A stretch of 63,633 bases of DNA, filler included, from Pirum gemmata (lineage: Eukaryota): assembly GCA_002812295.1 (NCBI GenBank). It is 6 parts of 6 records of this genome, joined end to end, with 100 filler letters (N's around TTAATTAATTAA, not from the genome) between each part and the next. Parts side by side here need not be neighbours in the genome. Positions count along the whole stretch, not along the records: positions 42,951 to 52,484 come from PDIN01000048.1; 5 more parts are not named here. One strand, written 5' to 3'. Positions 29,847-55,400 of this stretch are shown here, piece by piece. The position numbers and the translations under genes were made by a program. The notes under the pieces were generated by a model that saw nothing but the letters and a program-made list of their open reading frames with translations, was not told the origin of the DNA and searched no databases. Every line of letters starts with the position of its first letter. The first letter of the stretch is position 1.

Positions 29847-32539
29847 CTGTAATAATAAATTTATAATATACATACATNNNNNNNNNNNNNNNNNNNNNNN
29901 NNNNNNNNNNNNNNNNNNNNNTTAATTAATTAANNNNNNNNNNNNNNNNNNNNNNNNNNNNNNNNNNNNNNNNNNNNATATTATGATAATATTATGTATA
30001 GTATAATTATATTATATATATATTATATAATATAATATATATACTGATCATGAACTCAGGAGTCTTTAGAATATAAACCGAGCTCTACTAGCTAGCTAAC
30101 TAGCTACGTAATATATTCTATCGATAAAATTTGATAAATATGATACATTACCATAATAATATATCGAAAAAGTAAAATAATTATTTCCATTACAGTAGTA
30201 TTGTCCAACTGAATCTCTACAAAACAACTAAAAGTAAAGATATTAATTTAACTAATTTAAAAAAATTGAAATCTAGTTTTATTGAATTCAATCAACTACG
30301 CGTACGTATATATAATATAAGGATTGTTATAATATATTATTGATAAACCAATTACAAATAACATTATCATAATAGTAGTAACATCATTATTTCTATTATT
30401 ATTATTTTATTCTACTATATGATCGATAGTTGTTACATAATATACTTATCCCCAGCACTAGAGCCCTAACCGGCATGCCCTAACGTTATAACCCTCACCC
30501 TAACCCTAGCCCTCACCCTAACCCTAACCCTAACCCTAACCCTCACCCTAACCTAACCCTGACCCTAACAACTCTTATTAGCTATAGCGTATACATCACA
30601 ATATGATGGTAATTTTTATTATTATTATTATTTATTTATTTATAAATGTAGTTTTCGTACAACGTTCTCAGTTTTTAGACTATTAAATTTTCAAGGACTT
30701 GAAAATCATCATCCGATATTGTTATTTGCAATTGTATATATATTATTGTTATTTATGTATTTATAATCTTAACCGGTAATTATAAATTAATAGTAATAAT
30801 AAAATAATAATAATAATGATTTTTTTATTATTATTACACAAATTATATTCATAACATGTACATGTGGGAGAAAGGTGCCTATAATTTATAGTTTATGATT
30901 AATGATAATCATGATAAACGAAACAAAACAAAAAAAGAACATGATAATGTATGATATTATTACTACTATCGATATGATACTACTATGACATTATCAATAC
31001 TGTCTATTCTCAATAGCTAGCTATAGTACTTTTCAGTTGTTTTGTCATCATAAATTTAAAATATACAATAAATTGTACCAAATTAATATAATATAAATTT
31101 AATTTGGTATATTTTATTATCTATTATTATATTGATTAAATAAAAAATGTCAATTTAAAGATTATAACCCTCCAAATAAATATTCAGAGTGATAAATTAA
31201 ATGAAAAACACGATAGCAATAAGCTATTGATAATAAATGAAAAAATTTCAAAAGCACTATGCATTATTACATACAAAACAAAACAAAAAATTGAAAATTT
31301 CGCAAAATTTCCCAAGTAGCAAACAAATTATGATTATGTTTTCTTGATTCTAGAGCTAGCTAGACTAGTACTAGTTCTTGATTTTTTAATTTTTTATTAT
31401 AATAACTAGACCTAATGAAAGTACTATCATATTGTGCTTTTCATTTACTTTGTCACTCTGAATATTTATTTGGTGGGTTATAATATTTAAATTGGAATTT
31501 TTAAATCAATACATAGATAATAAAATATACCAAATTAAAATAAAAGGATTTATATTGTGTTGATTTGGAACTATTTATTGTATATTTTATGACATAATAA
31601 GAAAACAACTGAAAAGCATTCATTATACCTAATTTTCCTAATGGGCCAGTAAGCCCTGTCACAAAGGCTGGTCTACAATGACTCTGCATGAGTTAGAAAG
31701 GTACTATCGATCAGTCAGAGTGACACTTGAAGTGACACCCAGGAATACACCAGAGGTTTGAGTATTGGAGGAGTATTGGGTCAAGTATGTAGACTATTGG
31801 TCAGCAGTATTGGTTTTCAAGTTTCATCTACTAGCTAGCTACTAGCTAACTACTAGTAGCTAGCAAGTTTCATCCAAATGGCGAAATGGCAAATGGGGGT
31901 TTCAGAGTGGTTTCAGAGTGGTTTCAGTTTTTTGATTCTACCCAATGATAAGGCTATTTTTAGATGTTTTTTTTGGTCTTTCTGACTCTTTTATCAATAG
32001 ACAGCCAGATAGTAGATACAGACAGCTACTAGATACATCCGAATATTTATTTGGTTGGTTATAATATTTAAATTGACATTTTTAAATGAATATATAGATA
32101 ATAAAATGTACCAAATTAAATTAAATGGATTTATATTATATTAATTTGGTGCTATTTATTGTATATTTTATCACTAGACTATAGTCTAATAAGTACTAGG
32201 TACTAGTTTAGGTCTGATACTCAAGTACTTTTCAGTTTGTCATACAATAAAGAGTACCAAATTAATACAATATAAATCCATTTAATTTAATTTTTCTATA
32301 TTCTATTATTTCTTTATTCTTTTAAAAATATCAGTTTAAAGGTTATAACCTACCAAAAAAAATATGAAAAGTACTATTGATATGCTATGATAGTCTACTA
32401 ACTACTCTAGCTAGATCTACTACACTTCTAGGTAGACAGACTATCAAAGATATTACGATACTCCACGCTTTATTATCGACAGATATTATGATAGACTATT
32501 TTTTTAAAAAAATAATATGATATATATTGATTGATATAT

Positions 32540-39206: not shown

Positions 39207-42200
39207 AAAAAACAAAATTCAAAAAACTTTTTCCAAGAATAAGTAATAGCTTTACATTATTGCTATACATAATATTATCTAGATCTAGGTTATATATACA
39301 TAAATATGAATGAAAAAAATATAATAATCATAATAATTATTAATAATGAATAAACAATAATACATTAAAATATGAAAAAACATAATTATTATTGAATCTC
39401 ATATTATAACATTAGCATTGCAATAATAATAATAATAATATTAATAAGGATAACAATTATATAAAAATGTAGAAATGATACTAATACTACTAATAAGGGC
39501 TGGCGTTAGTGTTAGTGTTAAGTGTTAGTGTTAGTGTTAGTTTTAAGTGTTGGTGTTGGTGTTGGTGTTGGCGTAAGTATTAATGTTAGTGTTACGTTGG
39601 GCTAATTCTGAAGTAATGTTCAAGCAAGAAAGTAAAAGTCTGAAGCTTGACTATCATCTAGTCCGTACTCTAACCCTAACCCTATTAGTATTTATTTTAG
39701 ACTTGTTTTCGAAATCGATTAATATTGATAAAAACAAAATTCAAAAAATATTTTCCAAAAATAAGTATAGCGATTCTCATTTATTTTGTCGCTCTGAATA
39801 TTTATTTGGTTGGTTGGGGATGGGGATGGGGATGGGGATGGNTTATTATTATTGTTATCATTATTATTATATAATTATTATTATATATTATTACTATTAT
39901 TAATTATTATTATTATCATTATTATTGTTATTATATATTAAAAGGTAAAAATAAAAATTAGATTAAAAACAAACAACAACTACCAAGGTCTCAAAACAAC
40001 AACAACAACAACAACTTCAACAAACTACATGTATAACAAACAAACTACAACAAACTATATATTATTATACAAACTACAAACTTATCATAATTATTTTGGT
40101 TAAAATTTTTATTATTAATATTAGTATTTTAATTAAATTAAAACTTCAAAATTATTTTTCATCTCAAATTATAATTTAATTATAATCACGTATCGGTACG
40201 TACTATCGTGTTTTTCAATAGTGTTATCCAGTTCAAAAACTGAAATAAAACTTACCAAATTATAATTAATTGGTCATGTTTTAATTAATTTGATATTTTA
40301 TATAGTAATTTTATATTTATAAAAAAGTTCAATTATACAATTAAACGGTACCGAATGAAAAGACGATACATACTTTTAAAATACAACAGCCCCATAAATA
40401 AGCAGCTGGCCAAAAACATAATAAAATATTACCATAGAATTTTACTTTTCAAGTAGACAATAAATAGTACCAAATTAACACAATATAAATCCATTTACTT
40501 TAATTTGGTATGTTTTATTATCTAATTATTGATTTAAAAATGTCAATTTAAAGATTATAACCCTCCAAATAAATATTCAAAGTCACAACCACGATATCCA
40601 TCCGGTCAAATACAGCTTCAAATACCCCCTACCTACCTACCCTTCGACGTTAATTTCCGGTCAAATACCCCCTACCTACCTACCCCTTGACGTGACTTAT
40701 TATTTGAAGGCTCCCTTAATTAACAATATTGTGCTTTTCATTTATTTTGTCACTCTAAATATTTATTTGGTAGGTTATAATATTTAAATTGATACTTTTA
40801 AATAAATAAATAAATAATAAAACATACCAAATTAAATGAAATGGATTTATTTTGTATTAATTTGGTACTATTTATTGTATATTTTATGATAACAAAATAA
40901 CTGAAAAGCATGATATCAACATTTATCATAAATTTTCTTCTTGGTAGAGTCTATCGTCACTATTATAGACTACGGTATATCATATCATAATATTATGATA
41001 TCGTGCTTTTCATTTATTTTATCACTCCGAATATTTATTTGGTTGTTTATAATATTTAAATTGATACTTTTAAATAAATAAATAAATAATAAAATATACC
41101 TAATTAAANNNNNNNNNNNACATATGTATAGGTAGGTATTATCGTGCTTTGCAGTTGTTTTGCCTTCATAAAATATACAATAAATAGTACCAAATTCATA
41201 CAATATAAATCCATTTAAGTTAATTTGGTATACTTTATTATGTATTTATTGATTTAAAAATGTCAATTTAAAGACTATAACCCTCCAAATACATATTCAC
41301 TACTGATACCCACTGACGATACCAGCAGAAAATTTATAATATTAATTAATATTATGATAATGCACATGTGCTTTTCATTTATTTTGCCATTCCAAATATT
41401 TATTTTGCTTGTTTTAAAATATTTAAACTGATATTTTTAAATTAATAATTAGATAATAAAATATACCAAATTTTAAAAATAAAATGAATTTATATTGTAT
41501 TAATATATATGTGGGTATCGGCAGTATCCTATGATACCGATCATAATTATAACAGCTCTCGGGTCAGACTCTCGGGTGGCAGAGGCAGACTCCCCAGGCA
41601 GACTCCCCAGGCAGAGTGGTTGAGTTGACTGTCAAAGTACTGTCAACCAGTTTGAAATTTGAATGACTGGGGTTCGAATCTGTCAACGATATCATGTGAG
41701 GTTTTCGCTATTTTCCCTCTAAAGGCATGAACGTAATAATAAAATTCCACACCTAAAATATGGCAAAAAAGCCACAAACTCTGGAGGGAAACAGTAGGGA
41801 AACACTAGCTAGGAAACCATGGTCTCAGAACATGGTGGAACACAAACCATGGTCTCAGAACATGGTGGAACACCGGTATACCCAGGGTTAGGGTCTAGGG
41901 TTAGGGTTAGTTAGGGTTAGGGTTAGGGTTAGGGTTAGGGTTAGGGTTAGGGTTAGGGTTAGGGTTAGGGTTAGGGTTAAGGAGGAATGGTAGGTCGGAA
42001 TGTGTGAACAGTGTGTGAACCTAGTGAACCTCTCCCTAGACGCAAGTAAGGAGACTGAAAATGCAACTCGAAAAATAAAAAAATAAAAAAATAAAAAAAT
42101 AATATTGATATCGATACCTTACTTTTCATTCACTCGGAATATTTATTTGGAGGGTTATAATCTTTAAATTGACATTTTTAAATCAATAAATAGATAATAA

Positions 42201-42689: not shown

Positions 42690-42985
42690 GTTAGTATAAT
42701 TGTGATTGTTGTGGTTGTTATGGTTATTATTGTGGTTATTATTATGGTAGTAAATACAATTGTTTATTATTATTATTATCATTATTATTATTATTATTAT
42801 TATTTATTATTATTTATTATTATTGTTATTATTATTTATTATTATTATTANNNNNNNNNNNNNNNNNNNNNNNNNNNNNNNNNNNNNNNNNNNNTTAATT
42901 AATTAANNNNNNNNNNNNNNNNNNNNNNNNNNNNNNNNNNNNNNNNNNNNTTTTTTTTGTTTGTTTGTTTGTTTGTTTGTTTTCT

Positions 42986-43489
42986 TTATCCTCGGTAAAC
43001 CATCTTTCTCCATTTGGTATCTGGGAAGCAATCTTTAGGTGATTTGATAAAGCAAGAGTGCGCACAACTTACTACATCTTTACAATTATTCATCAAATTC
43101 TGAGCACAAACTGTCATTTGTTCGTCCGCAGAATTGTCGTTGGGCATAGAGGCTTTGACCATTGTGACAACTTTCAATTGCTGAGCGATTGTTTCGATTG
43201 TATCCGTGGAATTTTTCAGATTACTTGCCAATCTCTTATCTGGACATTTTTGTTCAAACAATCGAGCACATTTAGCTGCTTTCTTTGCGTCCGCAGTAAT
43301 TTCTCTGGACAAAGCAATAAGTTCGGATTTTGCCCCTATTTTTTTTTTGTTTGTTTGTATGTTTGATATATTAGTATAATATAATAATAATAATCGTTAT
43401 AGTTGCCAATACTAAAATGCAATCGAAATAACGATCGATAAATTTGGAAGTAATTATATAAATCAATGTATTGATGATGATGGTGATAA

Positions 43490-43522
<33 letters not shown>

Positions 43523-44072
43523 CGATGTTCTTGATGTTGGTATTGATGTTTATCATGATGATGATGATGATGATGATGGTGATGATGATATTGGTGATAA
43601 ATGATAATAATAGTACTTATTAACTCAATTAATTACCTCTTTGATCCTTCAAGGAAGACATCTTAGCAAAGTTCTCTGTAATTCTCTTCATAAACATGAT
43701 AAGATCATTTTCGGTATCATCCCACTGCAATACTGCATTGTGTAAATCTTGAGCAGCTTTACCCATGGCATTATCAGCGGTATCAAGTTTAGGAGCTGCT
43801 GCCATAACAACACGTCTTTGTTCTTCAAGAATTTGAGCTTGTTCTGCTTCTTTTCTTCTTCTCTCTTCTTCTCGAAGTCTAGCTTGTCTTTCTGCTTCTT
43901 CCGCAGCTAACCTGGCTTCTTCAGCTAATCGAGCGGCTTCAGCTGCCGCGGCTGCATCGGCCAATCTCTTAGCCTCAGCCTCACGTGCAGCTTTTTCAGC
44001 AGCCTATTTTAATTCAATAAAAACAAAACAAAAAACAAAAAATGTATTAATAAAAGAAAATCAACAAGGAAA

Positions 44073-44136
<64 letters not shown>

Positions 44137-44318
44137 TATTATTATTATTATTATTATTATTGTGTTGTGAAAAATAAATAAAAAAGTTAAACACATCATA
44201 TGGATATTTGACTATTTATTGCTACACAAAACTATATTTTATTATTACTCAAACTATATTTACATATATAACTTCTATTATTCTAGTTTTCCTATTTTTC
44301 TTCTTTTTTGTTTTTTTT

Positions 44319-44368
<50 letters not shown>

Positions 44369-46270
44369 CGTCTTTCTAAATCTTCCAAGTTCTCACCACC
44401 TAAAGCATTGATAGCTCTATTAGCTGCTGCTTTGAGTGCATTTTCTTTAGCAGCCAAATCTTTACTATTACTTTCACTTGGATCAGCTTTATACTGGTCC
44501 AAGGATTTAAAGTAGCCTGGGCTTTCTTTAGCGATGGCGTTCTTGGCTGCTTGTAATTCCTGTGTATAAGCCGCGTTATCGTGATTCGCTTCTAATTCTT
44601 TGTCAAGAACATCATTTAATCTGTCAAGAATTTGTTGAACTTCTTCTTTATGATAATTGAATTTATCATCATCACCAGCTTTAGCTCCATCTCGAGCATT
44701 TTTCATTGCATCAGCAAGACGTCTTTCTAAAGCGGCAGCAGCCAAACCTATTTTTAAAAAAAAAAATACACGAAATTTAACAAATGAATTGGAACAAGTA
44801 ATTAATGAAGAAAAAAATGAACAGAAGAAAAAAATTAAAATAAAATCGAAGAGAGGGGTCAGTGAAATTACCAGGTTTGTTAGTAGCACGGTCCATAGCA
44901 TCTACAAGTCCTTTATGACGTCTGTCCCATTCAGCTTTGACTAAATCAGCATGTTTCTTATCTTCTGCGTTTCCAGATTTAGCAGCTTGTTTAGCTGCAG
45001 CGATAAGAACTGGTGTGTATTTTTTAACGTTGTCTGAAGCATCAATAACAGCTTTGGATTTCGGTCCATTCTCTGTAAGAGAAGCAACAGCCTTTGCAGT
45101 ATTGTCCAAATGATTAACAGCTTTTTGTAATGATAATAATTGTTAGTAACAAAAACGTTTCAAAAATAACAAACTATTCATAATGGTGAATTGTAAAATA
45201 TTTGATAAAATTATAATAGTAATTGCAACAATAGCAAATATAATAATGTAACAATTACAAAAAGATTCAAAAAGAATGAAAATATTGATAAATAATAAAA
45301 TGCGAATTACCCTTTTCCAATTTAGGTGAAATTTGTTCAACTCCAGGTACATCTTCAGCTTTGGATTTTTCCATTAATTTGTTGGCCAAGATCATCGCAT
45401 CAATAGCTGCTTTTTCTCTGTTTTTAGCCAATACTCTCTCACAATCATCTCTTAATTCGCCAATTTCGTGGTGTAATTCACCACAAGCCTGCTTATATTT
45501 TTCTTTTAAGTCTTCATCATTAGGATTTCCTTGTAATTTTTTAGCTAGTCCTTCAACTTCATTCATCAATTTTTCGCATTTGGCAATTCTGTCTCTTAAT
45601 CTTTTGGCGTCTTCAGGATCATCACAGTTATGGGCAATTTTTTTAGCTTCTTCGATAACCTTTTTGTATTCGCTCATCAATTCAGATTGGGTGATAGGAT
45701 CGAATGCATCGCCATTTATACCACTTTCTAGAATATCTAATACATTAGCAACGGCTGTGGCAAAATCGCCACCTGGACAAAAGGTTTCTGCTAAAAAGTA
45801 TCTCATGTTAACTAAATAAATAATTCGTTCACAGGCTTCATTTATCTCGGTAATGTAAAAGTCTCTGGAAACAGCAGCGTCTGCATTTTTATTTTGAACC
45901 CAACCTTTTAAGGAAGACACTAAACCTACACTGTTGCTGGTAACGATCTTAATAGCTTCTTCCGTGCTTTCACGATGTGGGCCTGTTTTCAAAAGATTAG
46001 CTCTCTCGGTGGATAATCTAGCCGCAGCTACAAGTTTAGGATTCAAAGCTTTTACAGAAGCAACCAAAGCTGCAAGATCTCCGACATCTTTTGTAGGAGT
46101 TAACGCAGCTTGAGCTTCTCTGCAAGCTGAAACAATTATACGTTTGTCCCTATCGTCATACACATCAAGCATTTGAACACAGCCTTTCATCATGTTATTA
46201 CATCCTTGATCCATGTTTTTGTGTTGCTCTAAATCTCTTCCATGTTCCAAAAGAGCAGTGATAGCGTCAA
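42986..46270 (-). CDS. Vinculin/alpha-catenin family protein; exons 46270-45311, 45120-44872, 44747-~44370, 44003-43637, 43335-42986; N-terminal ~90 aa not seen
   Basis: Tail QWDDTENDLI...KCPDKRLASNL...IAQQLKVVTMVKA...CAQNLM matches the vinculin tail; YDDRDKRIIVSAC aligns with vinculin D1 (FDEAEVRKIIRVC). Three introns are GT-AG and phase-consistent; the donor near 44370 is replaced by a homopolymer. Confidence 0.92.
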
Positions 46271-46357
46271 CTATTTGTTGTGCTCCTTTTTCGGAAAAAT
46301 CACAAGGAGAAACCTAACCAAAAGTAAACAAACGGTCAACAAAAGGTAACAATGCCA

Positions 46358-46417
<60 letters not shown>

Positions 46418-46501
46418 TATAATTATAATAATAGTAATAACAATAATAATAATAATAATAATATTTAACAATATTCATAAGAAGTAAAAATTAATGCTTA
46501 C

Positions 46502-47291
46502 AAAAGTAACCTACAGTAGAAAGAAAAAAACTAGCACCAATTAACATGTAAAAGCCTGCAAACCACACAGTACCCTTCTTCACATTAAAATGATTTAGAA
46601 TGTCACCATACCCGACTGAAGTCTAACAAACAAAAAGATTATTGTGATTATTGCTGTTAGTTTTAGTGTGATGGTGGTTGCTGAACAAGTTAGGGTTAGG
46701 GTTAGGGTTAGGGTTAGGGTTAGGTTAGGGTTAGAAAGGGTTATGGTTAGGTTAGGTTTAGAAAGGGTTAGGGTTAGGTTAGGTTCAGAAAGGGTTAGGG
46801 TTAGGATTAGATTAGGGTTAGAAAGGGTTAGGGTTAGAAAGGGTTAGGGTTAGAAAGGGTTAGGGTTAGGGTTAGGGTTAGGAAAGAGGTTATTGTGATC
46901 ATTGCTATTAGTTTTAGTGTAATGTTAGTTGTTGAAGAAATTAGGGTGGGTGACTGTGAATATTTTGTTAGAGATTACTATTAACCTTTACACATTTAGT
47001 ATACAATAACATAAATGCAAGCAATGTGCAATAACAAGGACTAGAATAACGACATATGATATTGGTAAATAAAATTTAAGTCAGGATTACAGTAACAGTC
47101 AAAGCCACAGTTAGGATTAGAGTTAGGATTAGGGTTAGCGTTAGCGTTAGCGTTAGCGTTAGCGTTAGGGAAAACACATACACAAGTCTCCAAAGCCCAA
47201 TAAACGGAATTCAAAGTTGATAAATTTTCCACAATAGAGTAGTAAACAACTCCGACAACAATAATGGAGACTAAAAATACAATACATCCTA
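46502..47291 (-). CDS. Potassium channel TM-pore-TM module, exons 47291(or 47288)-47182 and 46622-46502
   Basis: Spliced: GCIVFLVSIIVVGVVYYSIVENLSTLNSVYWALETC|TSVGYGDILNHFNVKKGTVWFAGFYMLIGASFFLSTVGYF; TxVGYGD selectivity filter; donors GTATGT and GTAAGC. Confidence 0.92.
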
Positions 47292-47670
47292 CTATTTGTA
47301 ATAAAACTTTTTTATATTCTCTACTGAATGACAGTTTACCCCTATATTGAAAAATACAAGGCCAGAGTTAGGGTGATGGTTGGGATTAAGGTTGGGGCAG
47401 GGTTACCGTTGGGGTTAAGGTTGGGGTTAAGGTTGGGGTTAAGGTTGGGGTCAAGGTTAGGGTTAAGGTTAGGGTTAAGGTTGTGGTTAAGGTTGGGGTT
47501 AAGGTTGGGGTTAAGGTTGGGGTTAAGGTTGGGGTTAAGGTTAAGGTTAAGGTTAAGGGAGGGGTTAAGGTTGGGTTAAGGTTCAGGTTAGGGTTGGAGC
47601 TAAGGTCCAGGTTAGGGTTGGAGCTAAGGTCCAGGTTAGGGCTAGATTTATGGACTATAATAAAACATAC

Positions 47671-47995
47671 CTTCAAAAGTACAATTTCGAATAGGTATTG
47701 ATATATCACTCTCTAAATCCAGACTATCAACACCCACTTCTAGTTCATTTTCACAGTGCACCAAAATTAAACCCCAATTATCACAGTAATTATTCGATCT
47801 TTTCATTAGTTTAATTTCGTTATCGGTTAAATTACGATAACCCTCGGGAACGCTATCTAATTTAGCTATTGGTTCATTTTGGTGTTTTACAATTAATTGA
47901 ACAGCTGGATTGTCTTTTATCTCTCTAATTTTATTCAGAAAATCACAATTTTTTATAGAAGCTAGAACTTCCTCTGCTGGTGTTTTTACGTCCAT
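47671..47995 (-). CDS. First exon of a DUF4954-like protein
   Basis: ATG at 47995, GTATGT donor at 47670; YRNLTDNEIKLMKRSNNYCDNWGLILV...IRNCTFEG resembles the DUF4954 N-terminal YRxLTxxEI...DW...IRNxxFxG pattern (from memory). Confidence 0.65.
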
Positions 47996-49142: not shown

Positions 49143-49539
49143 ATAAACTAAGCTAAGTTAGCTAGCTAGCTAGTACTAACGCTATCAATAACTTAGCCAA
49201 GCTAGCTGCTAGCTAGCTACTAGCTAGGGGGTCTATGAGAGCGTTAGTAGCAGCTGGTTACTAGCTAGCTACTAGAGATTTTTATATCAGATCGATTAAA
49301 TAGAGTTTGGCTTTGGGGTTCGGGTTTCTAGCTAGGTTAGGGACTTAGGGTTTAAGGTTTAGGGTTTAGGATTTAGGGTTTATTTTTAGTTTTAGGTTTA
49401 GGGTTTAGGGTTTGGTTTTAGTTTTAGGTTTAGGGTTTAGGGTTAGTGTCAGGATTGGGGTTAGAGGTATAAAATACCAAATTAATTAAAACATGCCTGA
49501 TAGTTTAACCATAATAATTATTTGGTACGTTTACTTCAG

Positions 49540-50381
49540 TTTTTTTCTTGATCGCAATTTATGTTTAAGTTCTTATTGTAATGGTGTAGCAACATATTTA
49601 GAACTTGGACGCTTGGTAATATCACAAAGAAAGCCGTATTGTAAATAATAATCCCAACTTTGCCAAAAATTCGGCCCGACCTTTTTTTCAAAATTTGCAA
49701 GTACTTTCAGACAGACTTCTTTTTCTCGATCGCGATTATGTTTAATAAGTTTTTGTTTTAATTGTGTAGCAATATCTTAAGCACTCGGAAGCTTGGTAAG
49801 ATCACATAATACACTAATATATATTGTTACACGATTAAAACAAGAACTTAAACATATGTATATTATAATATCGCGATCAAGAAAAAGAAGTCTATCCAAA
49901 AGTATCTTTGTTGTTAGTTTAAATTTTGAAAAGGGGTTTCGGCAAAGTTGGGATTATAAATTGTAATACAATATTGGTGTACTAAGTGATATTACCAAGC
50001 GTTCAAGTGTTAAAGATATTGTTACACAATTAAAACAAGAACTTACACATATAACGATATCGCAATCAAGAAAAAGAAGTCTATCCGAAAGTAACCTTGT
50101 TAGTTTAAATTTTTGAAAAGTGTTTTCGGCAAAGTTGGGGTTATAAATTGTAATACAATATTGGTGTACTAAGTGATATTACCAAGCGTTCAAGTGTTAA
50201 AGATATTGTTACACAATTAAAACAAAAACTTAAACAAACATATATCGCGATCAAGAAAAAGGAGTCTATCCGATAGTAACCTTGAAAATTTTGAAAAGAG
50301 TTTTCGGCAAAGTTGTGTGTTGTGTATAAATTGCAATACACTATTGGTGTGCTAGGTGATATTACCAAGCGTTCAAGTGTT
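49540..50381. repeat. Palindromic tandem array of ~185-bp units derived from the Raf 3' coding end
   Basis: 49540-49806 holds about 1.5-2 units oriented like the gene; 49822-50381 holds about 3 units in the opposite orientation (unit starts near 49986, 50172, 50356). All match 51424-51588. Confidence 0.9.
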
Positions 50382-51150
50382 CTAATTTAAAAAAACATAA
50401 TTAATTCCAAATCCAACTGGCTAGTGACTTCGATGTAAATTGGTGCAAAAGAAGTTCACAATAATAATTCTAATTTACAAAAATAATTAATTCCAAAGCT
50501 GCCAAACTTGGCAACCGTAACATTCAGTGGTACAAGACTAGACTTTGTACGAATTCTTTCGTACAAAGAGGTTCACAATAATAATAGAACTATCAATATC
50601 TACGCAGTATCTACGCACTGTGGCGCTTTTTTCAAAAAAGTCGGAAGACTTTGCAGATATTCAAAAACATACAAATATCAGGGGCTAATTTATAAATAAT
50701 GGAGGAGGATCAGATTCTCAAAATAATTGAAGCAAAGAAACAAGGAACCCTCACTTTGGCAACCCTAACCTTAAAAGAAACGGAATATAAATGGTTAATA
50801 AAAATATATAGTACGTACGCTAGTTATTTCATTTCTTTATTATTGTTGGCATTTTTCATTTTTGCCGTTTAATTTCATACATATAAATTCATACAAAATA
50901 GCCAAACAAAGAACGATAAGGAGTATCACAGACCCTCCCAGTTTTTTTTTTTTTGTGGCAACAAAAAGATAAACAATTCAACTTTAGTTTGTTTTTCTTT
51001 TTTCTTCGCCTTTTTCTTTCTTCTTTTATTACTCCAGCATTTTGAGTTGTAAAAGGTATCATACGATGTTACTTAAATAAAACATCAAAATGATATTTTG
51101 AGAACGTTTTCCCTATTCATAGGCTTACTATAATTCACAAGAAGTCGACC

Positions 51151-51400
51151 GTGACCAACCTTCCAAGTGCTAAAGATTGTGCCACATAATTAAAACAAGA
51201 ACTTAAACTTATATCGCGATCGAGAAAAAGAAGTCTGCCCGGAAAGCAACCTTGTAATTTGAAAAAGGTAGGCCGAATTTTTGGGCGAAGTTGGGATTAT
51301 AAATTATAATACACCATATCACAGTTAAAACAAGAACTGAAACATATATTGCGATCAAGAAAAAGAAAGTAAGCTTGAAAATTTTGGAAAAAGGTCGGCT
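51151..51400. repeat. Inverted copies of the Raf 3' coding end directly after the stop codon
   Basis: 51151-51308 is a near-full reverse complement of 51424-51588 (e.g. ttaaacttatatcgcgatcgagaaaaagaagtctg); 51315-51400 is a partial second copy. Confidence 0.9.
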
Positions 51401-51421
51401 TAACATACTAAGAATGTTGTC

Positions 51422-52376
51422 TTACAGTTTATAATCCCAACTTCCCAAAAATTCAGCCCGACCTTTTTCAAAATTTACAAGGTTACTTTCGGACAGACTT
51501 CTTTTTCTCGATCGCGATATAAGTTTAACTTCTTGTTTTAATTGTGTAGCAATATCTTTAGCACTTGGGCGCTTGGTAATATCACTTTGCACACATCGAT
51601 CTACCATTTCTTTTAAATTTTCAGGTACCTCCACAAAGGCTTCTTTTTCGACATCAATCTTTAAAATACCCATAGCAATTTGAAACACAATTTGTGCTGG
51701 GTGTAAATTTCGATGTGGAAGTTTCCCAGTTAACATTTCATAAAACACAACGCCAAATGAATAAATGTCTGATCCATTTTCGTAATGTATTTTTCCTGGT
51801 TTTGATTTCATTACTTCTGGTGCCATCCACAACACAGACCCTGGTAGTGGGTTAGTAGAATTTTTCCCCTTTTCTTCAGAATACAATGTTTTTACTGCAG
51901 CCAAACCAAAATCACCAACACGAACATGGTTATTCGAATCTAAAAAGATATTAGGAGATTTTAAATCGCGATGTAAAATTTCTTTATCGTGTAAATAACC
52001 TATGCCTAACGCTACTTGGTGAATTATTTTTAATACATTCATTACTTCAAATTCATAATCAGACACGTGGATAAGGTGATACAATGTACTACCACTACAC
52101 CATTCAGTAATTATTGTAGGAGTTGGGTAACAACATGCTCCCATAAATAAAATAATATTTTGATGTCGACATCGCATCAATGTTTTTACTTCATTTCTGA
52201 AAGCTTCCATTTGCCCTTGACTAGGCTCTGTACAATGTAATTTTTTAATAGCTACCTCGCCATGCCAATTACCTTTGTAAACAGTGCCAAAAGACCCAGA
52301 CCCCGCACATTCTAAAATTTCTAGCTCTCCTTCATCTATTTCCCAGTCTGCAATGGACTCTTTATCGTAACTATCA
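51422..52376 (-). CDS. RAF: Raf-family MAP3K, terminal exon with the whole kinase domain
   Basis: From acceptor ccacAG: DWEIDEGE...GSGSFGTVYKGNWHGEVAIK...AFRNEV...RHQNIILFMG...HRDLKSPNIFL...DFGLAAVKT...GSVLWMAPEV, plus C-terminal RSLSESNL (Raf 14-3-3 site RSASEPSL). Confidence 0.93.
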
Positions 52377-52417: not shown

Positions 52418-55400
52418 TAATAATTAATAATCAATAATTAAAAATTAAAAACCAAAAATCAAAAATCAAAAATCAAAAATCAAANNNNNNNNNNNNNNNN
52501 NNNNNNNNNNNNNNNNNNNNNNNNNNNNTTAATTAATTAANNNNNNNNNNNNNNNNNNNNNNNNNNNNNNNNNNNNNNNNNNNNATTATTATTATTACCA
52601 TTAATATTACCCTATTATTATTATTATATTATAATAGTTTATAATTATATTAATATCGATAAATTAATTATTATGCTTAGGGTAGACTGCCATTTAATTT
52701 TTTTTTTGCATGAGACCTAGACTAGCTAGTAGACTATGCATGAAAAGTCATGAAACCTACCACATGTGGCAAGTCTTACGTATTTTATCACTCTGAATAT
52801 TTATTTGGTAGGTTTTTACCTTTACATTGTCATTTTTAAATTAATTAATAGATCATAAAATAATAGACCAACTTGCAAATTAAATGAAATAGATTTATAT
52901 TGTATTAATTAAATTTTGGTATTCTTTATTGTATATTTTATAAAATGATGACAAGGAAAAAGGAAAAAGCACCTTCAGCACGAGACCGAAGTACGTTCTT
53001 TACCTCGAGCTAGTTAATTTTTTTATAAATGATTTCTATAATGTATCGATATTTATAGTATATTTATCGATATTTGTAAATGGTATTTTAAAAAAAAAAA
53101 ATAATTTTTAATTTAATTTATACAATCTAACTTTTTTTTACCATTTTCCAACTTTTTTTTTTTATTTTTTTTTTATGATAATATGATATGATTGAAAAAT
53201 TTTAATAATAATTATTTTTTAAACCTATTGAATTATACCTATTATTTAAATAATTATTATTATTTTCGAAAACTGAAAATTATAGTGAAATCCAAAAGTC
53301 AGTCGTTTTTTTAATAACTTATGAAAAAAAGTTGCATCAATCATATTTATATAATTAAATTAAATTTTTTTATTGTTTACAAACAATAATATTATTATAT
53401 TAAAATTTTATAATTAATTTTAATATTAATTTTATAAATAAATAATAGTCTAATGGATAAAAATTTAATTTTTTTTTAATATAATGACCACCATAATAAA
53501 AAAAAATTAAAATTTTTAATACAGAAGTTCCATGTGGACATTGGAGAGATTTTTAAAAAAGAACACAAACACTGCCCCAAAACACTCGAAGGAAAAAAAA
53601 AAAAAATTAATGTAAAAAATAGACTGGCACCCAAATGAACAATAAAAGAACTTTGACAAAATATGGCTCAGTATGCTGCCGCATTGCTGCGCAAATTTAG
53701 TGTAAATTACTTCCAAATTTGTAAAACTAAACATACCATGTTTAGGTTAAAATATTTGGTTTTGGAAACCTATTTTTAGAATCCAATGAAATTTATGAAA
53801 TATTCAAATATGAAAAAATGTGGCTCAGAGGTAACTCCTAAATTCCTAATAACTCTCTCTCCTATTAAACTAAGTCCTAACACTCTCCTAACTCTCAGAA
53901 CACCTCAGAGGCTCAGAGCCACCGAGAAACATTTGGGAAACTACTAGCTAGCTAGCTAGAGCGGGAAACAGTCTCTAGCTAGTCGCTACAAGTAGCAGTG
54001 CCACTGCCACCACCAATATCTGCGGTCACTCCTCTCAGTCATCTTTAGCTTTTGATATAGGATAGGGCTGAAAACCTAAACCTAACATCCTAATCAATCG
54101 GTCACCCTAATTCTAATCCTAATCCTAATCGTAATCCTAACCCTAACAGTCTCTAATCCTCTCTAAGTTTTAATTCTAACCCTATAGCTATGACATAGCT
54201 AGCAACTTTCTAACCCTAATTGTAATTTATAAACCATAAATCTAACCCTCACCCTTACCCTAATGCTAATCCTAACTCTAATGCTAATCCTAACCCTAAC
54301 CCTATAGCTAATCCTAACCCTTAAACGTTAATTAACTTTAACCCTATAGCTAATATTATTAATAATATATATATCGTATTAATAGTCCCTAATCATATAA
54401 CTTTAACCCTTTACAGCTAACGCTAGTGCTATACGACATCGACAACGTCTTATACCCTAACGTAAATTTTAAAACCTTTTTTAAACCCCAATTAACCTTT
54501 GTGATGACCATATTATTATATTAATTTTTTAATTATTTATAATGTTGTTATTATTATTATATTCTTATTCTTATATTATAATTATTGTTGTTGCTGTTAA
54601 TTGAGCTTTAATATTAACAACGTTAATATTAATTAATAAATCTTAAATGTAATAATAATATAATAATTATATAATAATTATAAGATTTTGAAGATGAGAA
54701 AGAAAGAATAATAAAAAGTATTTTGTAATATGGCTTGAGTAACTGCTTGAGTGTACTGGTAGTCGTAGTCACAGTCCCACAGAGTGTGTTTTCTCAAATT
54801 CTCAGCCAGTTATTTTTGTTTACAACAAGTTTACAGCATTGATGAATGATCTTTTTTTTTTAAAAAAAAAACACCACTTCTAGCCAAATTATTTTTAAAA
54901 ATTGGCCATTGGTTCATAATAGAATTTTCTTAGTTAGCCGATTTCTTAAAATTAGGTAGTACTTTCATTGAATTTGGATTATTTTGAGAGTTTTTTTTGG
55001 TTTTTTGAGCTCCCCCGCAGGGCTTTGGTGTTTTAATAAGAAAAAAAATATTTTGCTTTTTTTTTTTTGTTGTTCATGACTCATCATCAGACAGCTAGTA
55101 GGTTATAGCTGAGAACTTGTTGTATTGTTTGTTTGTGTTGTTTGTTGTTTGTTGGTTTTTGTAGAAGGTTGATGAGAAATAAAATTATTTTTTTTTCTTC
55201 CTTGTTTATTAGGTATAATGCTAGCTAGGGTTATTTATAATATTATTACTTGTTAGTTTTAGTAGTACTAGTGTTATCATTATTTTCAATAGCGTTATCC
55301 AATTCAAAAACTGACATAAACATAACAAATTATTATTATAGTTAATAAACAATCAGACATGCATGTTTTAATTAATTTGGTATTTTATTGAAATAGACGA

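What the first reader, a model, noticed from the sequence alone, without database searches (positions are those of the whole stretch)
51151..51588. Raf gene followed at once by an inverted copy of its own last ~165 coding nt (self-hairpin)
Seen: 51151-51308 is a diverged reverse complement of 51424-51588, about 115 nt past the stop codon, with a partial second copy in the loop. The copied part encodes the RSLSESNL 14-3-3-type motif, so the gene is the donor. Inference: a Raf mRNA with a 3' UTR of about 270 nt would fold back on its own CDS as a long imperfect duplex, a substrate for Dicer/Drosha or editing. Established: inverted duplication of a target gene is a known origin of hpRNA/miRNA loci in plants and flies.
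Basis: partly seen in the sequence, partly recalled or inferred. Interest (0 to 1): 0.75.

Follow-up and report, generated by a model that had tools for sequence, protein, structure and literature searches.

The report
Raf mRNA folding on itself
In a single-celled relative of animals (Pirum gemmata), the end of a Raf-like kinase gene has been copied eight times right behind the gene, and the nearest long back-to-front copy appears in RNA data, so the messenger is predicted to fold into a 150-base-pair helix over its own coding end; this is likely a tolerated duplication scar, but it could feed the cell's RNA-silencing machinery.

Summary
The inverted copy is real: 51154-51318 matches the last ~160 nt of a Raf-like kinase CDS (145 of 161 aligned bases). 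The predicted mRNA fold has 151 pairs (-226 kcal/mol, z -25.6). It is no amplification chimera: contigs of three runs from three studies carry it unchanged. Two of those runs hold spliced RNA and cover it, which places it in the 3' UTR (strand not shown). The organism is the ichthyosporean Pirum gemmata, reported to have Drosha, Pasha, Dicer and Argonaute.

The downstream six form a second, longer fold-back that RNA contigs also cover. Nothing shows selection. This copy is no closer to the gene than the others, has no G-U strand bias, and leaves three gene-only changes uncompensated. Close inverted repeats are common in this window. No small-RNA data were available.

Verdict: most likely a tolerated local duplication scar that builds a CDS-UTR duplex and perhaps leaks siRNAs, like mouse Optn. 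A regulatory hpRNA reading stays open (about 0.2-0.3).

The parts
51422..52376 (-). Last coding exon of a Raf-like kinase (whole kinase domain plus C-terminal tail, stop at 51424-51422); splice acceptor AG at 52378-52377
   Evidence: Best PDB hit B-Raf, E 9e-79. Groups with Raf kinases, support 96/99. X2 and X3 contigs leave the genome exactly at 52376 with the same 30 letters, in frame. Those letters are not in the window.
51414..51577 (-). 5' arm of the predicted duplex: last ~52 codons, stop codon and ~8 nt (donor segment; other copies reach up to 51594)
51320..51404 (+). Copy B: partial inverted copy in the loop (gene 51546-51452); can pair with the CDS alone (-103 kcal/mol without A)
51154..51318 (+). 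Copy A: inverted copy, 3' arm of the predicted mRNA duplex; 35-nt perfect block 51203-51237 = 51494-51528
51304..51435 (.). Hairpin loop region bounded by a 7-nt direct repeat (51304-51310 and 51429-51435); inferred back-junction in run X2 (RT template switch or loop circle)
   Evidence: Inferred from contig borders and depth arithmetic; the letters of the junction record were not displayed
50818..51421 (-). Inferred 3' UTR of the kinase mRNA; AATAAA at 51030 and 50841
   Evidence: X2 contig chain down to 50925 and X3 contigs down to 50818; hexamers. The true 3' end is not shown.
50785..50785 (.). Shared stop of RNA-derived contigs in two studies while the DNA contig goes on: possible end of a second transcription unit, strand unknown (weak hint)
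   Evidence: X3 stops without a loose end; X2 continues with one C and an Illumina adapter (adapter identity recalled)
49812..50385 (+). Tandem inverted copies F (49812-49972), E (49973-50159), D (50160-50339), partial C (50343-50385); period 187, 3.0 copies
49542..49805 (-). Direct copies G (49805-49640) and H (49625-49542); with D/E they form a second fold-back (49540-50270: -267 kcal/mol, z -18.4)
   Evidence: covered by X2 contigs 49504-50785

Best explanation
This is a likely tolerated DNA-duplication scar: the last ~180 nt of a Raf-like kinase gene sit in eight local copies behind the gene, and the nearest long inverted copy is covered by RNA-derived contigs, so the mRNA is predicted to fold into a ~150-bp duplex over its own coding end. 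Step 1 (inferred): replication template switching or fold-back made an inverted copy of the gene end, and later slippage or unequal exchange made tandem and re-inverted copies. Step 2 (shown): the copies have decayed to 86-92% identity with indels. Step 3 (cover shown; strand and single-molecule continuity inferred): transcription runs through B and A to about 50.8-50.9 kb. Step 4 (predicted): the duplex forms on untranslated or nuclear mRNA and is unwound by ribosomes reading the last ~52 codons. Step 5 (untested): Dicer or Drosha may cut a share of it and give low-level siRNAs, as at mouse Optn, without a selected regulatory role.
For: Eight copies in both orientations, including the stop codon but no poly(A) tail; tandem period 187. 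A is not closer to the gene than the others: difference rate 0.121 against 0.108 for G and 0.138-0.159 for B, D, E, F, H; pooled Fisher p 0.62, copies not independent. The 35-nt perfect block is within chance (permutation P 0.125). Transitions that keep a G-U pair on the mRNA strand: 6 against 3, p 0.51; the opposite strand folds nearly as well, z -22.3. At 3 of 129 ungapped columns the gene differs from all five compared copies including A, so those changes are uncompensated; only 2 columns join gene and A alone. 17 of 23 close inverted pairs in the window are unrelated to this cluster, mostly a dispersed ~190-nt repeat. The gene|B junction holds a short interrupted palindrome, the kind of site linked with template switching (PMC5453318, abstract and opening seen).
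Against: With about 20 differences the selection tests have little power. The same ~180-nt gene end was copied and kept eight times, while 0 of 8 exons of the neighbouring vinculin-family gene have local copies beyond one 25-27-nt simple-repeat match and 0 of 37 distant kinase loci hold an inverted repeat of 60 nt or more (weak control). A 151-pair duplex with a 39-bp unbroken helix in a species reported to have 2 Dicer, Drosha, Pasha and 2 Ago is unlikely to be wholly without effect. Drosophila hpRNAs are born in just this way, next to their targets and with tandem copies (PMC10317233 section 12).
Confidence: 0.55

Rival explanations
1. Functional cis self-regulation. The CDS-UTR duplex is a selected brake on Raf: Drosha or Dicer cuts the untranslated mRNA inside its own coding end, removing the stop and the 14-3-3-type motif, and the siRNAs silence further Raf mRNA. 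Active translation unwinds the stem and protects the message.
For: RNA cover across both arms in two studies. 151 pairs and a 39-bp helix; 15 of 149 21-mers of A match the CDS perfectly and 47 have at most 2 mismatches. The machinery is reported in this species, and synthetic siRNA silences in Creolimax (PMC4342548 passages). An inferred back-junction in X2 sits where the helix brings two sites together, which suggests the fold exists in extracted RNA.
Against: No sign of selection on pairing. The kinase exon is present as long spliced contigs in both RNA-holding runs. No small RNA was sequenced for this species in PMC6206976. The back-junction is absent from the X3 and X1 contigs.
Confidence: 0.22
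2. The active part is a separate hpRNA-like unit downstream (49.5-50.8 kb). Copies D/E fold on G/H and give siRNAs that hit the Raf CDS in trans, and copy A is a by-product of the same duplications.
For: Second fold-back of -267 kcal/mol, z -18.4. X2 contigs cover 49504-50785, and X2 and X3 both stop at 50785 (weak hint). The tandem-plus-inverted layout beside the parent gene is like D. simulans hp58, ballchen and tHMG hpRNAs. D and E pair with the CDS end at -185 and -194 kcal/mol.
Against: The strand and nature of that RNA are unknown, and it may be read-through. 0 of 161 (D), 0 of 167 (E) and 0 of 141 (F) 21-mers match the CDS perfectly; 12, 26 and 8 have at most one mismatch. Three mismatches abolished siRNA action in Creolimax. 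X3 has no listed contig below 49830.
Confidence: 0.13
3. The hairpin rarely forms on mature mRNA, because most messages end earlier or the RNA cover of the arm comes from another or opposite-strand transcript.
For: Contigs show neither strand nor molecule ends (tool note). In X3 the two contigs that meet in arm A overlap by only 15 nt.
Against: A single X3 contig (51218-51528) bridges the stop codon, the loop and about 100 nt of arm A. X2 contigs chain from 52376 to 50925. The first AATAAA on the minus strand after the stop is at 51030, beyond A.
Confidence: 0.08
4. Assembly or amplification artefact.
For: The window has gaps and many repeats, and X1 may be the source of this DNA.
Against: The arms differ by 10-13% with indels. 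Contigs of X2 and X3, from two other studies, carry the junction region with 0 other letters and 0 gaps.
Confidence: 0.02

Closest known systems
Mouse Optn 3'-end inverted repeat, a natural endo-siRNA source (PMC11239679, passages read)
   Same: [quoted passage not shown]
   Different: The Optn stem is ~300 bp with a ~1 kb loop. The passages compare it to a hairpin placed in a 3' UTR and do not say that one arm is coding. Here one arm is the CDS end with the stop codon, the loop is ~95-125 nt, and small RNAs are untested.
De novo Drosophila simulans hpRNAs born beside their parent gene: hp58/CG17385, ballchen, hp-tHMG cluster (PMC10317233, sections 7 and 12 and passages read)
   Same: Inverted fragments of a protein-coding gene next to that gene, with local tandem and multiple copies and long imperfect stems. 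The downstream D/E-G/H fold-back has this layout.
   Different: Those loci are defined by Dcr-2-dependent 21-22-nt siRNAs and by derepression in dcr-2 mutants, neither tested here. They are separate non-coding transcripts, whereas the gene:A duplex would be inside the intact mRNA.
Inverted-duplication origin of plant MIRNA genes (10.1101/682591, search listing and start of abstract only; the wider model is recalled)
   Same: A partial inverted duplication of gene sequence gives a fold-back complementary to the parent gene.
   Different: No mature/star pair is shown; the stem is long and decays evenly; the organism is a unicellular holozoan.
Ichthyosporean miRNAs of Sphaeroforma (PMC6206976, parts 1-2 of 6, passages and supplement 1 read)
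   Same: Same class of organism. [quoted passage not shown]
   Different: Those are short hairpins conserved across species with 2-nt-offset products. This is a ~150-bp CDS-derived duplex with no Rfam match at gathering level.
Replication template-switch inversions (PMC5453318, abstract and opening only)
   Same: Local switches create hairpins and paired inverted repeats without selection.
   Different: The events described there are short and single; here a ~180-nt unit was copied eight times.
Raf kinases (B-Raf; Sphaeroforma arctica TKL/RAF/RAF XP_014153289.1; Creolimax CFRG5905T1)
   Same: Kinase domain 43-46% identical (blastp); groups in the Raf clade; RSLSESNL aligns with RSASEPSL of BRAF and RAF1.
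   Different: The N-terminal RBD and C1 domains are outside the window. The two other ichthyosporean proteins lack the motif at the aligned place.

Membership tests
hpRNA / hairpin endo-siRNA locus | Long inverted repeat that folds into an extended duplex | tested here: met
   151 pairs, z -25.6; second fold-back z -18.4
hpRNA / hairpin endo-siRNA locus | Both arms transcribed in one RNA | tested here: inconclusive
   Contigs of two RNA-holding runs cover both arms, and one contig bridges stop, loop and ~100 nt of arm A. Contigs do not show strand or single molecules.
hpRNA / hairpin endo-siRNA locus | 21-22-nt siRNAs from the duplex, Dicer-dependent | not testable with these tools
   No small-RNA run among the 7 listed; this species was not small-RNA-sequenced in PMC6206976
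hpRNA / hairpin endo-siRNA locus | Precursor or target rises when Dicer is lost | not testable with these tools
   Needs a knock-down experiment
hpRNA / hairpin endo-siRNA locus | Separate non-coding transcript | tested here: not met
   For gene:A one arm is the intact CDS. For the downstream unit this is inconclusive (shared contig stop at 50785).
Canonical miRNA (Drosha/Pasha type) | Short hairpin with mature and star reads at a 2-nt offset | not testable with these tools
   No small-RNA data; the only Rfam row is a chance match at E 0.99
Canonical miRNA (Drosha/Pasha type) | Conserved sequence or compensatory changes across species | tested here: inconclusive
   No close relative found: 37 loci at 25-43% identity. 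Within the window no G-U bias or compensation.
Processed pseudogene / retrocopy | Poly(A) tail and dispersed insertion | tested here: not met
   Copies end ~10 nt after the stop without an A tail, and all lie within 1.9 kb of the gene. The rest of the genome could not be searched.
MITE-derived hairpin | Unit with terminal inverted repeats, dispersed | tested here: not met
   The unit is kinase coding sequence with 8 local copies only; the window's dispersed repeat families are unrelated
Amplification chimera | Near-identical arms, confined to one library | tested here: not met
   10-13% divergence with indels; same sequence in contigs of three studies
Raf kinase | Kinase domain groups with Raf | tested here: met
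   Clade support 96/99 among 23 rows. No named KSR was in the tree, and the pairing with Creolimax/Sphaeroforma (90/90) carries a long-branch warning.
Raf kinase | C-terminal 14-3-3-binding phosphoserine motif | tested here: inconclusive
   RSLSESNL aligns with RSASEPSL but lacks the +2 proline; the role of the motif is recalled and binding is untested
Raf kinase | N-terminal Ras-binding and C1 domains | not testable with these tools
   The upstream exon is not in the window and no genome is held

The most novel reading that the evidence does not exclude
An endogenous RNAi circuit on Raf in a unicellular relative of animals. The Raf mRNA carries an antisense copy of its own coding end in its 3' UTR, so untranslated messages become Drosha/Dicer substrates (a translation-coupled self-destruct switch). 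A second hairpin RNA built from further copies just downstream supplies siRNAs in trans. This would be gene-derived hpRNA regulation outside animals, plants and fungi, in a lineage that has the Microprocessor.
Probability: 0.2. Interest if true: 0.8.

Novelty: new variant of a known kind. Interest (0 to 1): 0.45.

Why it matters
Ichthyosporeans have the animal Microprocessor, but its substrates and targets are barely known: eight miRNAs in Sphaeroforma and none found in Creolimax (PMC6206976). A transcribed, gene-derived long duplex with an obvious target gives a direct test of what Drosha, Dicer and Ago do in Pirum. It also tests whether the inverted-duplication route to silencing loci operates in unicellular holozoans. 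A duplex that covers the stop codon of an intact signalling-kinase mRNA is an unusual layout. If it is neutral, it shows that such cells tolerate long dsRNA in an mRNA. If it is functional, it is a form of self-regulation that my searches did not find described for this group.

Tried and rejected
(1) No whole genome is held, so copies elsewhere in the genome and the upstream exons could not be checked. tblastn with 8 Raf-like proteins found no upstream exon in the window, and the 30 spliced-in letters are absent from it.

(2) The look-up of sequencing runs: no RNA holder listed on record; X2 and X3 were judged to hold RNA only from their splice junction.

(3) Editing: no other letters in any contig at min_share 1. 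Contigs drop rare variants, so this says nothing on editing.

(4) Contig depth in X2 is lower in the stem (50-77) than in the CDS (255) and distal UTR (148), as described for fly hpRNA arms. X3 does not show this, and contig depth cannot rank parts of a gene, so it is not used as evidence.

(5) X2 has no cover at 50786-50924 and X3 none at 50786-50817 or, among listed records, below 49830. A hole proves nothing.

(6) The 21 loose letters at 50785 were first considered a spliced leader; they are one C plus an Illumina adapter (recalled).

(7) The unit at 50785 as the 5' end of the vinculin-family gene: its gene model starts at 47995, so this is not supported, though an untranslated first exon is not excluded.

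(8) Loop deletion as the hidden X2 record fits worse (squared error 6.3 against 0.015) and conflicts with the contig borders. Depth alone is not unique, since 276 of 1,524,600 free models fit.

(9) No close ortholog with DNA: 37 metagenome loci at 25-43% identity. Two protein searches and the representative search did not list this species' own full-length kinase.

(10) Rfam and ARAGORN gave nothing.

(11) Earlier-findings look-ups by place, by sequence and by one word set were empty; one search gave unrelated rows.

(12) Ten paper searches found no description of this locus. Most subscription papers are not in the library.

Full report
What is there. The minus strand carries a 955-nt exon, 52376-51422, that encodes a whole protein kinase domain and a short tail. 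Its best solved relatives are B-Raf kinase domains (E 9e-79). In a 23-row tree it falls in the Raf clade (96/99), next to the Creolimax and Sphaeroforma proteins (90/90, with a long-branch warning; no named KSR was included). The tail motif RSLSESNL aligns with RSASEPSL of BRAF and RAF1; that this motif binds 14-3-3 is recalled, not tested. The neighbouring vinculin-family gene matches a protein at 99% whose record reads EP00122_Pirum_gemmata, so the window is from the ichthyosporean Pirum gemmata (taxonomy). That genome is described as AT-rich, repeat-rich and fragmented (PMC5560861, passages).

The observation. Copy A, 51154-51318 on the plus strand, aligns to gene 51577-51414 at 145 of 161 columns in five blocks. 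The mRNA strand folds at -225.7 kcal/mol, z -25.6, with 0 of 100 shuffles as good. The stem has 151 pairs, 6 of them G-U, the longest unbroken helix is 39 bp, and the same helices form in a 933-nt context. A partial copy B fills the loop (51320-51404) and could pair with the CDS on its own (-103 kcal/mol). The gene is the donor: the unit is conserved kinase sequence, while the copies have indels and differences at all three codon positions (A: 5, 3 and 6).

blastn finds eight copies of this gene end between 49542 and 51404. A and B are inverted. After a 770-nt stretch without copies come four more inverted copies in tandem (C partial, D, E, F; period 187), then two direct copies (G, H). All are 86-92% identical to the gene over aligned columns. 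D and E fold on G and H in a second hairpin (-267 kcal/mol, z -18.4, 0 of 20 shuffles). No copy has an A tail. A tree of the nine sequences has no support above 65, so the order of events is unresolved. The gene|B junction holds a short interrupted palindrome. Template switching during replication is known to create hairpins without selection (PMC5453318, abstract and opening); that it made this cluster is inference.

Is it genomic? Three runs from three studies hold the stretch (3 of 7 listed); X1 may be the source of the window. Contigs of X1 (51208-51523) and X3 (51218-51528) each span both junctions with no other letters or gaps, and X2 covers them in a chain. With 10-13% divergence between the arms, an amplification chimera is excluded.

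Is it transcribed? No run is on record as RNA. However, contigs of X2 and X3 both leave the genome exactly at the predicted acceptor, 52376, with the same 30 letters, which continue the reading frame. The X1 contig runs on into the intron. In X2 the depth of the last bin equals what is expected with no cover past 52376 (239.5 against 239.5; only 4 intron bases are tested). So both runs hold spliced RNA. X2 contigs chain from 52376 to 50925. X3 has 51499-52322, 51218-51528 and 50818-51232, the last two overlapping by only 15 nt. The minus strand has AATAAA at 51030 and 50841 and none nearer the stop; X3 ends 18 nt after the second. The simplest reading is a 3' UTR of 500-600 nt holding B and A. 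Contigs show neither strand nor molecule ends, so this is inferred.

A trace of the fold in RNA. X2 alone breaks the loop into three contigs, with borders at 51304-51333 and 51406-51435. Three X2 records were not displayed. Subtracting the listed ones from the depth tables leaves a record in two pieces. With its ends fixed by the contig borders, the best fit is 51406-51428 plus 51304-51333, 53 nt at depth about 34 (squared error 0.015, against 6.3 for a loop deletion and 355 for no record). That is what a backward jump at the 7-nt direct repeat at 51304-51310 and 51429-51435 would give, and the two sites lie side by side across the predicted helix (coordinate sum 102739 against a helix register of 102731). 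Depth alone does not fix this (276 of 1,524,600 free models fit), and I never saw the record's letters. I see no canonical splice sites at it. RT template switching is known to mimic back-splicing (PMC10275267, passages), so I read it as a library artefact favoured by a folded hairpin; a real loop circle is the alternative. X1 and X3 do not show it.

A possible second unit. X2 contigs cover 49504-50785. X2 and X3 both stop at 50785 while X1 goes on; X2 ends in one C and an adapter. An extra C could be the copy of a cap on a minus-strand start (inference from recalled RT behaviour), but a plus-strand 3' end or read-through is possible. This is a weak hint. If a minus-strand RNA starts there, it is antisense to the Raf CDS end over C-F and folds on G-H, the layout of a young hpRNA.

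Tests for selection, all negative but weak. A's difference rate (0.121) lies within the range of the other six copies measured (0.108-0.159; pooled Fisher p 0.62; C left out as too short), and its 35-nt perfect block is within chance (P 0.125). Transitions that keep a G-U pair on the mRNA strand number 6 against 3 (p 0.51), and the other strand folds at z -22.3. Among 129 ungapped columns of gene, A, G, D, E and F, the gene stands alone at 3 (uncompensated in A) and with A alone at 2. Close inverted pairs are common here: 23 rows with arms under 1 kb apart, 17 of them outside this cluster, mostly from a dispersed ~190-nt family with 22 hits of 100 nt or more. Against a purely ordinary reading, none of 8 vinculin-family exons has such copies, and 0 of 37 distant kinase loci hold an inverted repeat of 60 nt or more (short contigs, distant organisms). 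No close ortholog with DNA was found, so conservation is untested.

Machinery. PMC6206976 lists 2 Argonaute, 1 Exportin 5, 2 Dicer (as fragments), 1 Drosha and 1 Pasha for P. gemmata (Table S2), and it did not sequence small RNAs of this species. I read parts 1-2 of 6, passages and supplement 1, searched the three supplement files held as text, and could not see figures. Synthetic siRNAs silence a reporter in Creolimax and fail with three mismatches (PMC4342548, passages). Of 149 21-mers from A, 15 match the CDS perfectly and 47 within two mismatches; D, E and F give no perfect 21-mer.

How it most likely works. Shown: the copies, their decay, their presence in independent data, RNA cover over both arms, and the predicted fold. 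Inferred: origin by local template switching and tandem expansion; one mRNA carrying both arms; a duplex that forms when ribosomes are not unwinding the last ~52 codons. Untested: RNase III cleavage, siRNAs, editing and any effect on Raf. I commit to a tolerated scar that may leak siRNAs (0.55), ahead of selected cis self-regulation (0.22), a downstream hpRNA (0.13), an arm that is not in most mature mRNAs (0.08) and an artefact (0.02).

Comparison and novelty. It works most like the mouse Optn 3'-end inverted repeat, which gives low-level endo-siRNAs (PMC11239679, passages). Its layout is that of young D. simulans hpRNAs beside their parent genes (PMC10317233, sections 7 and 12). It cannot be filed as an hpRNA: the defining siRNA and Dicer tests were not possible, and the gene:A duplex is not a separate non-coding transcript. 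What differs is that one arm is the intact CDS with its stop codon, in a unicellular holozoan. Searches listed no such case for this group; that is a limited library, not proof of absence. Earlier notes of this scan report similar gene-derived fold-backs in other genomes, mostly read as scars (unchecked AI notes, not support). Verdict: real, covered by RNA data, new variant of a known kind, function untested; interest 0.45.

Noticed in passing
window 42989-47995 (-): Vinculin/alpha-catenin-family gene. Its public model (P0057, 942 aa) has a potassium-channel pore-like segment (Pfam Ion_trans_2, residues 109-176, E 2.7e-9; exons 47280-47173 and 46637-46509) in front of the vinculin part: either a fused gene model or an odd fusion.
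   Followed up: partly
window 40727-40915 and about 20 other places; also 27855-28046 and 7 others: Two dispersed ~190-nt repeat families. The first has terminal inverted repeats (MITE-like, 30 blast hits, 22 of 100 nt or more); the second shares a similar right end. Several copies form close inverted pairs, e.g. 31029-31616 and 40451-41504.
   Followed up: partly
window 51421-51209 (-): After the stop codon the same frame stays open for 70 codons through copies B and A and would add a hydrophobic stretch on read-through; likely a by-product of T-rich antisense sequence.
   Followed up: partly
window 51445 region: Copies A, D, E, F and G all have 1-2 more bases than the gene near the end of the CDS. 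Either the first copy gained a base, or the gene lost one and shifted its last codons to a second nearby stop after the copies were made.
   Followed up: partly
window 49856-49966 (+): Copy F keeps a 36-codon frame that includes the basic-serine motif and the gene's last five residues, despite indels; probably chance.
   Followed up: no
window 52376 upward: The exon spliced to 52376 is not found in the 11 kb of window upstream, so the intron is very long or the exon lies in an assembly gap.
   Followed up: partly
window 9696-9795, 20117-20216, 29878-29977, 42851-42950, 52485-52584: Assembly gaps of a fixed pattern: 44 N, 12 bases, 44 N (the 12 bases read as an AT palindrome at 52529-52540).
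   Followed up: no
window 1064-1497, 23051-23249, 46689-46892, 49345-49446 and others: Many interstitial telomere-like TTAGGG arrays, some inside introns of the vinculin-family gene.
   Followed up: no
P0219 and P0227 (Creolimax, Sphaeroforma): Their Raf-like kinases have very long tails after the kinase domain (1725 and 2090 aa in all) and lack the RSxSEP-type motif at the aligned place; the window's kinase ends soon after the domain and has it.
   Followed up: partly
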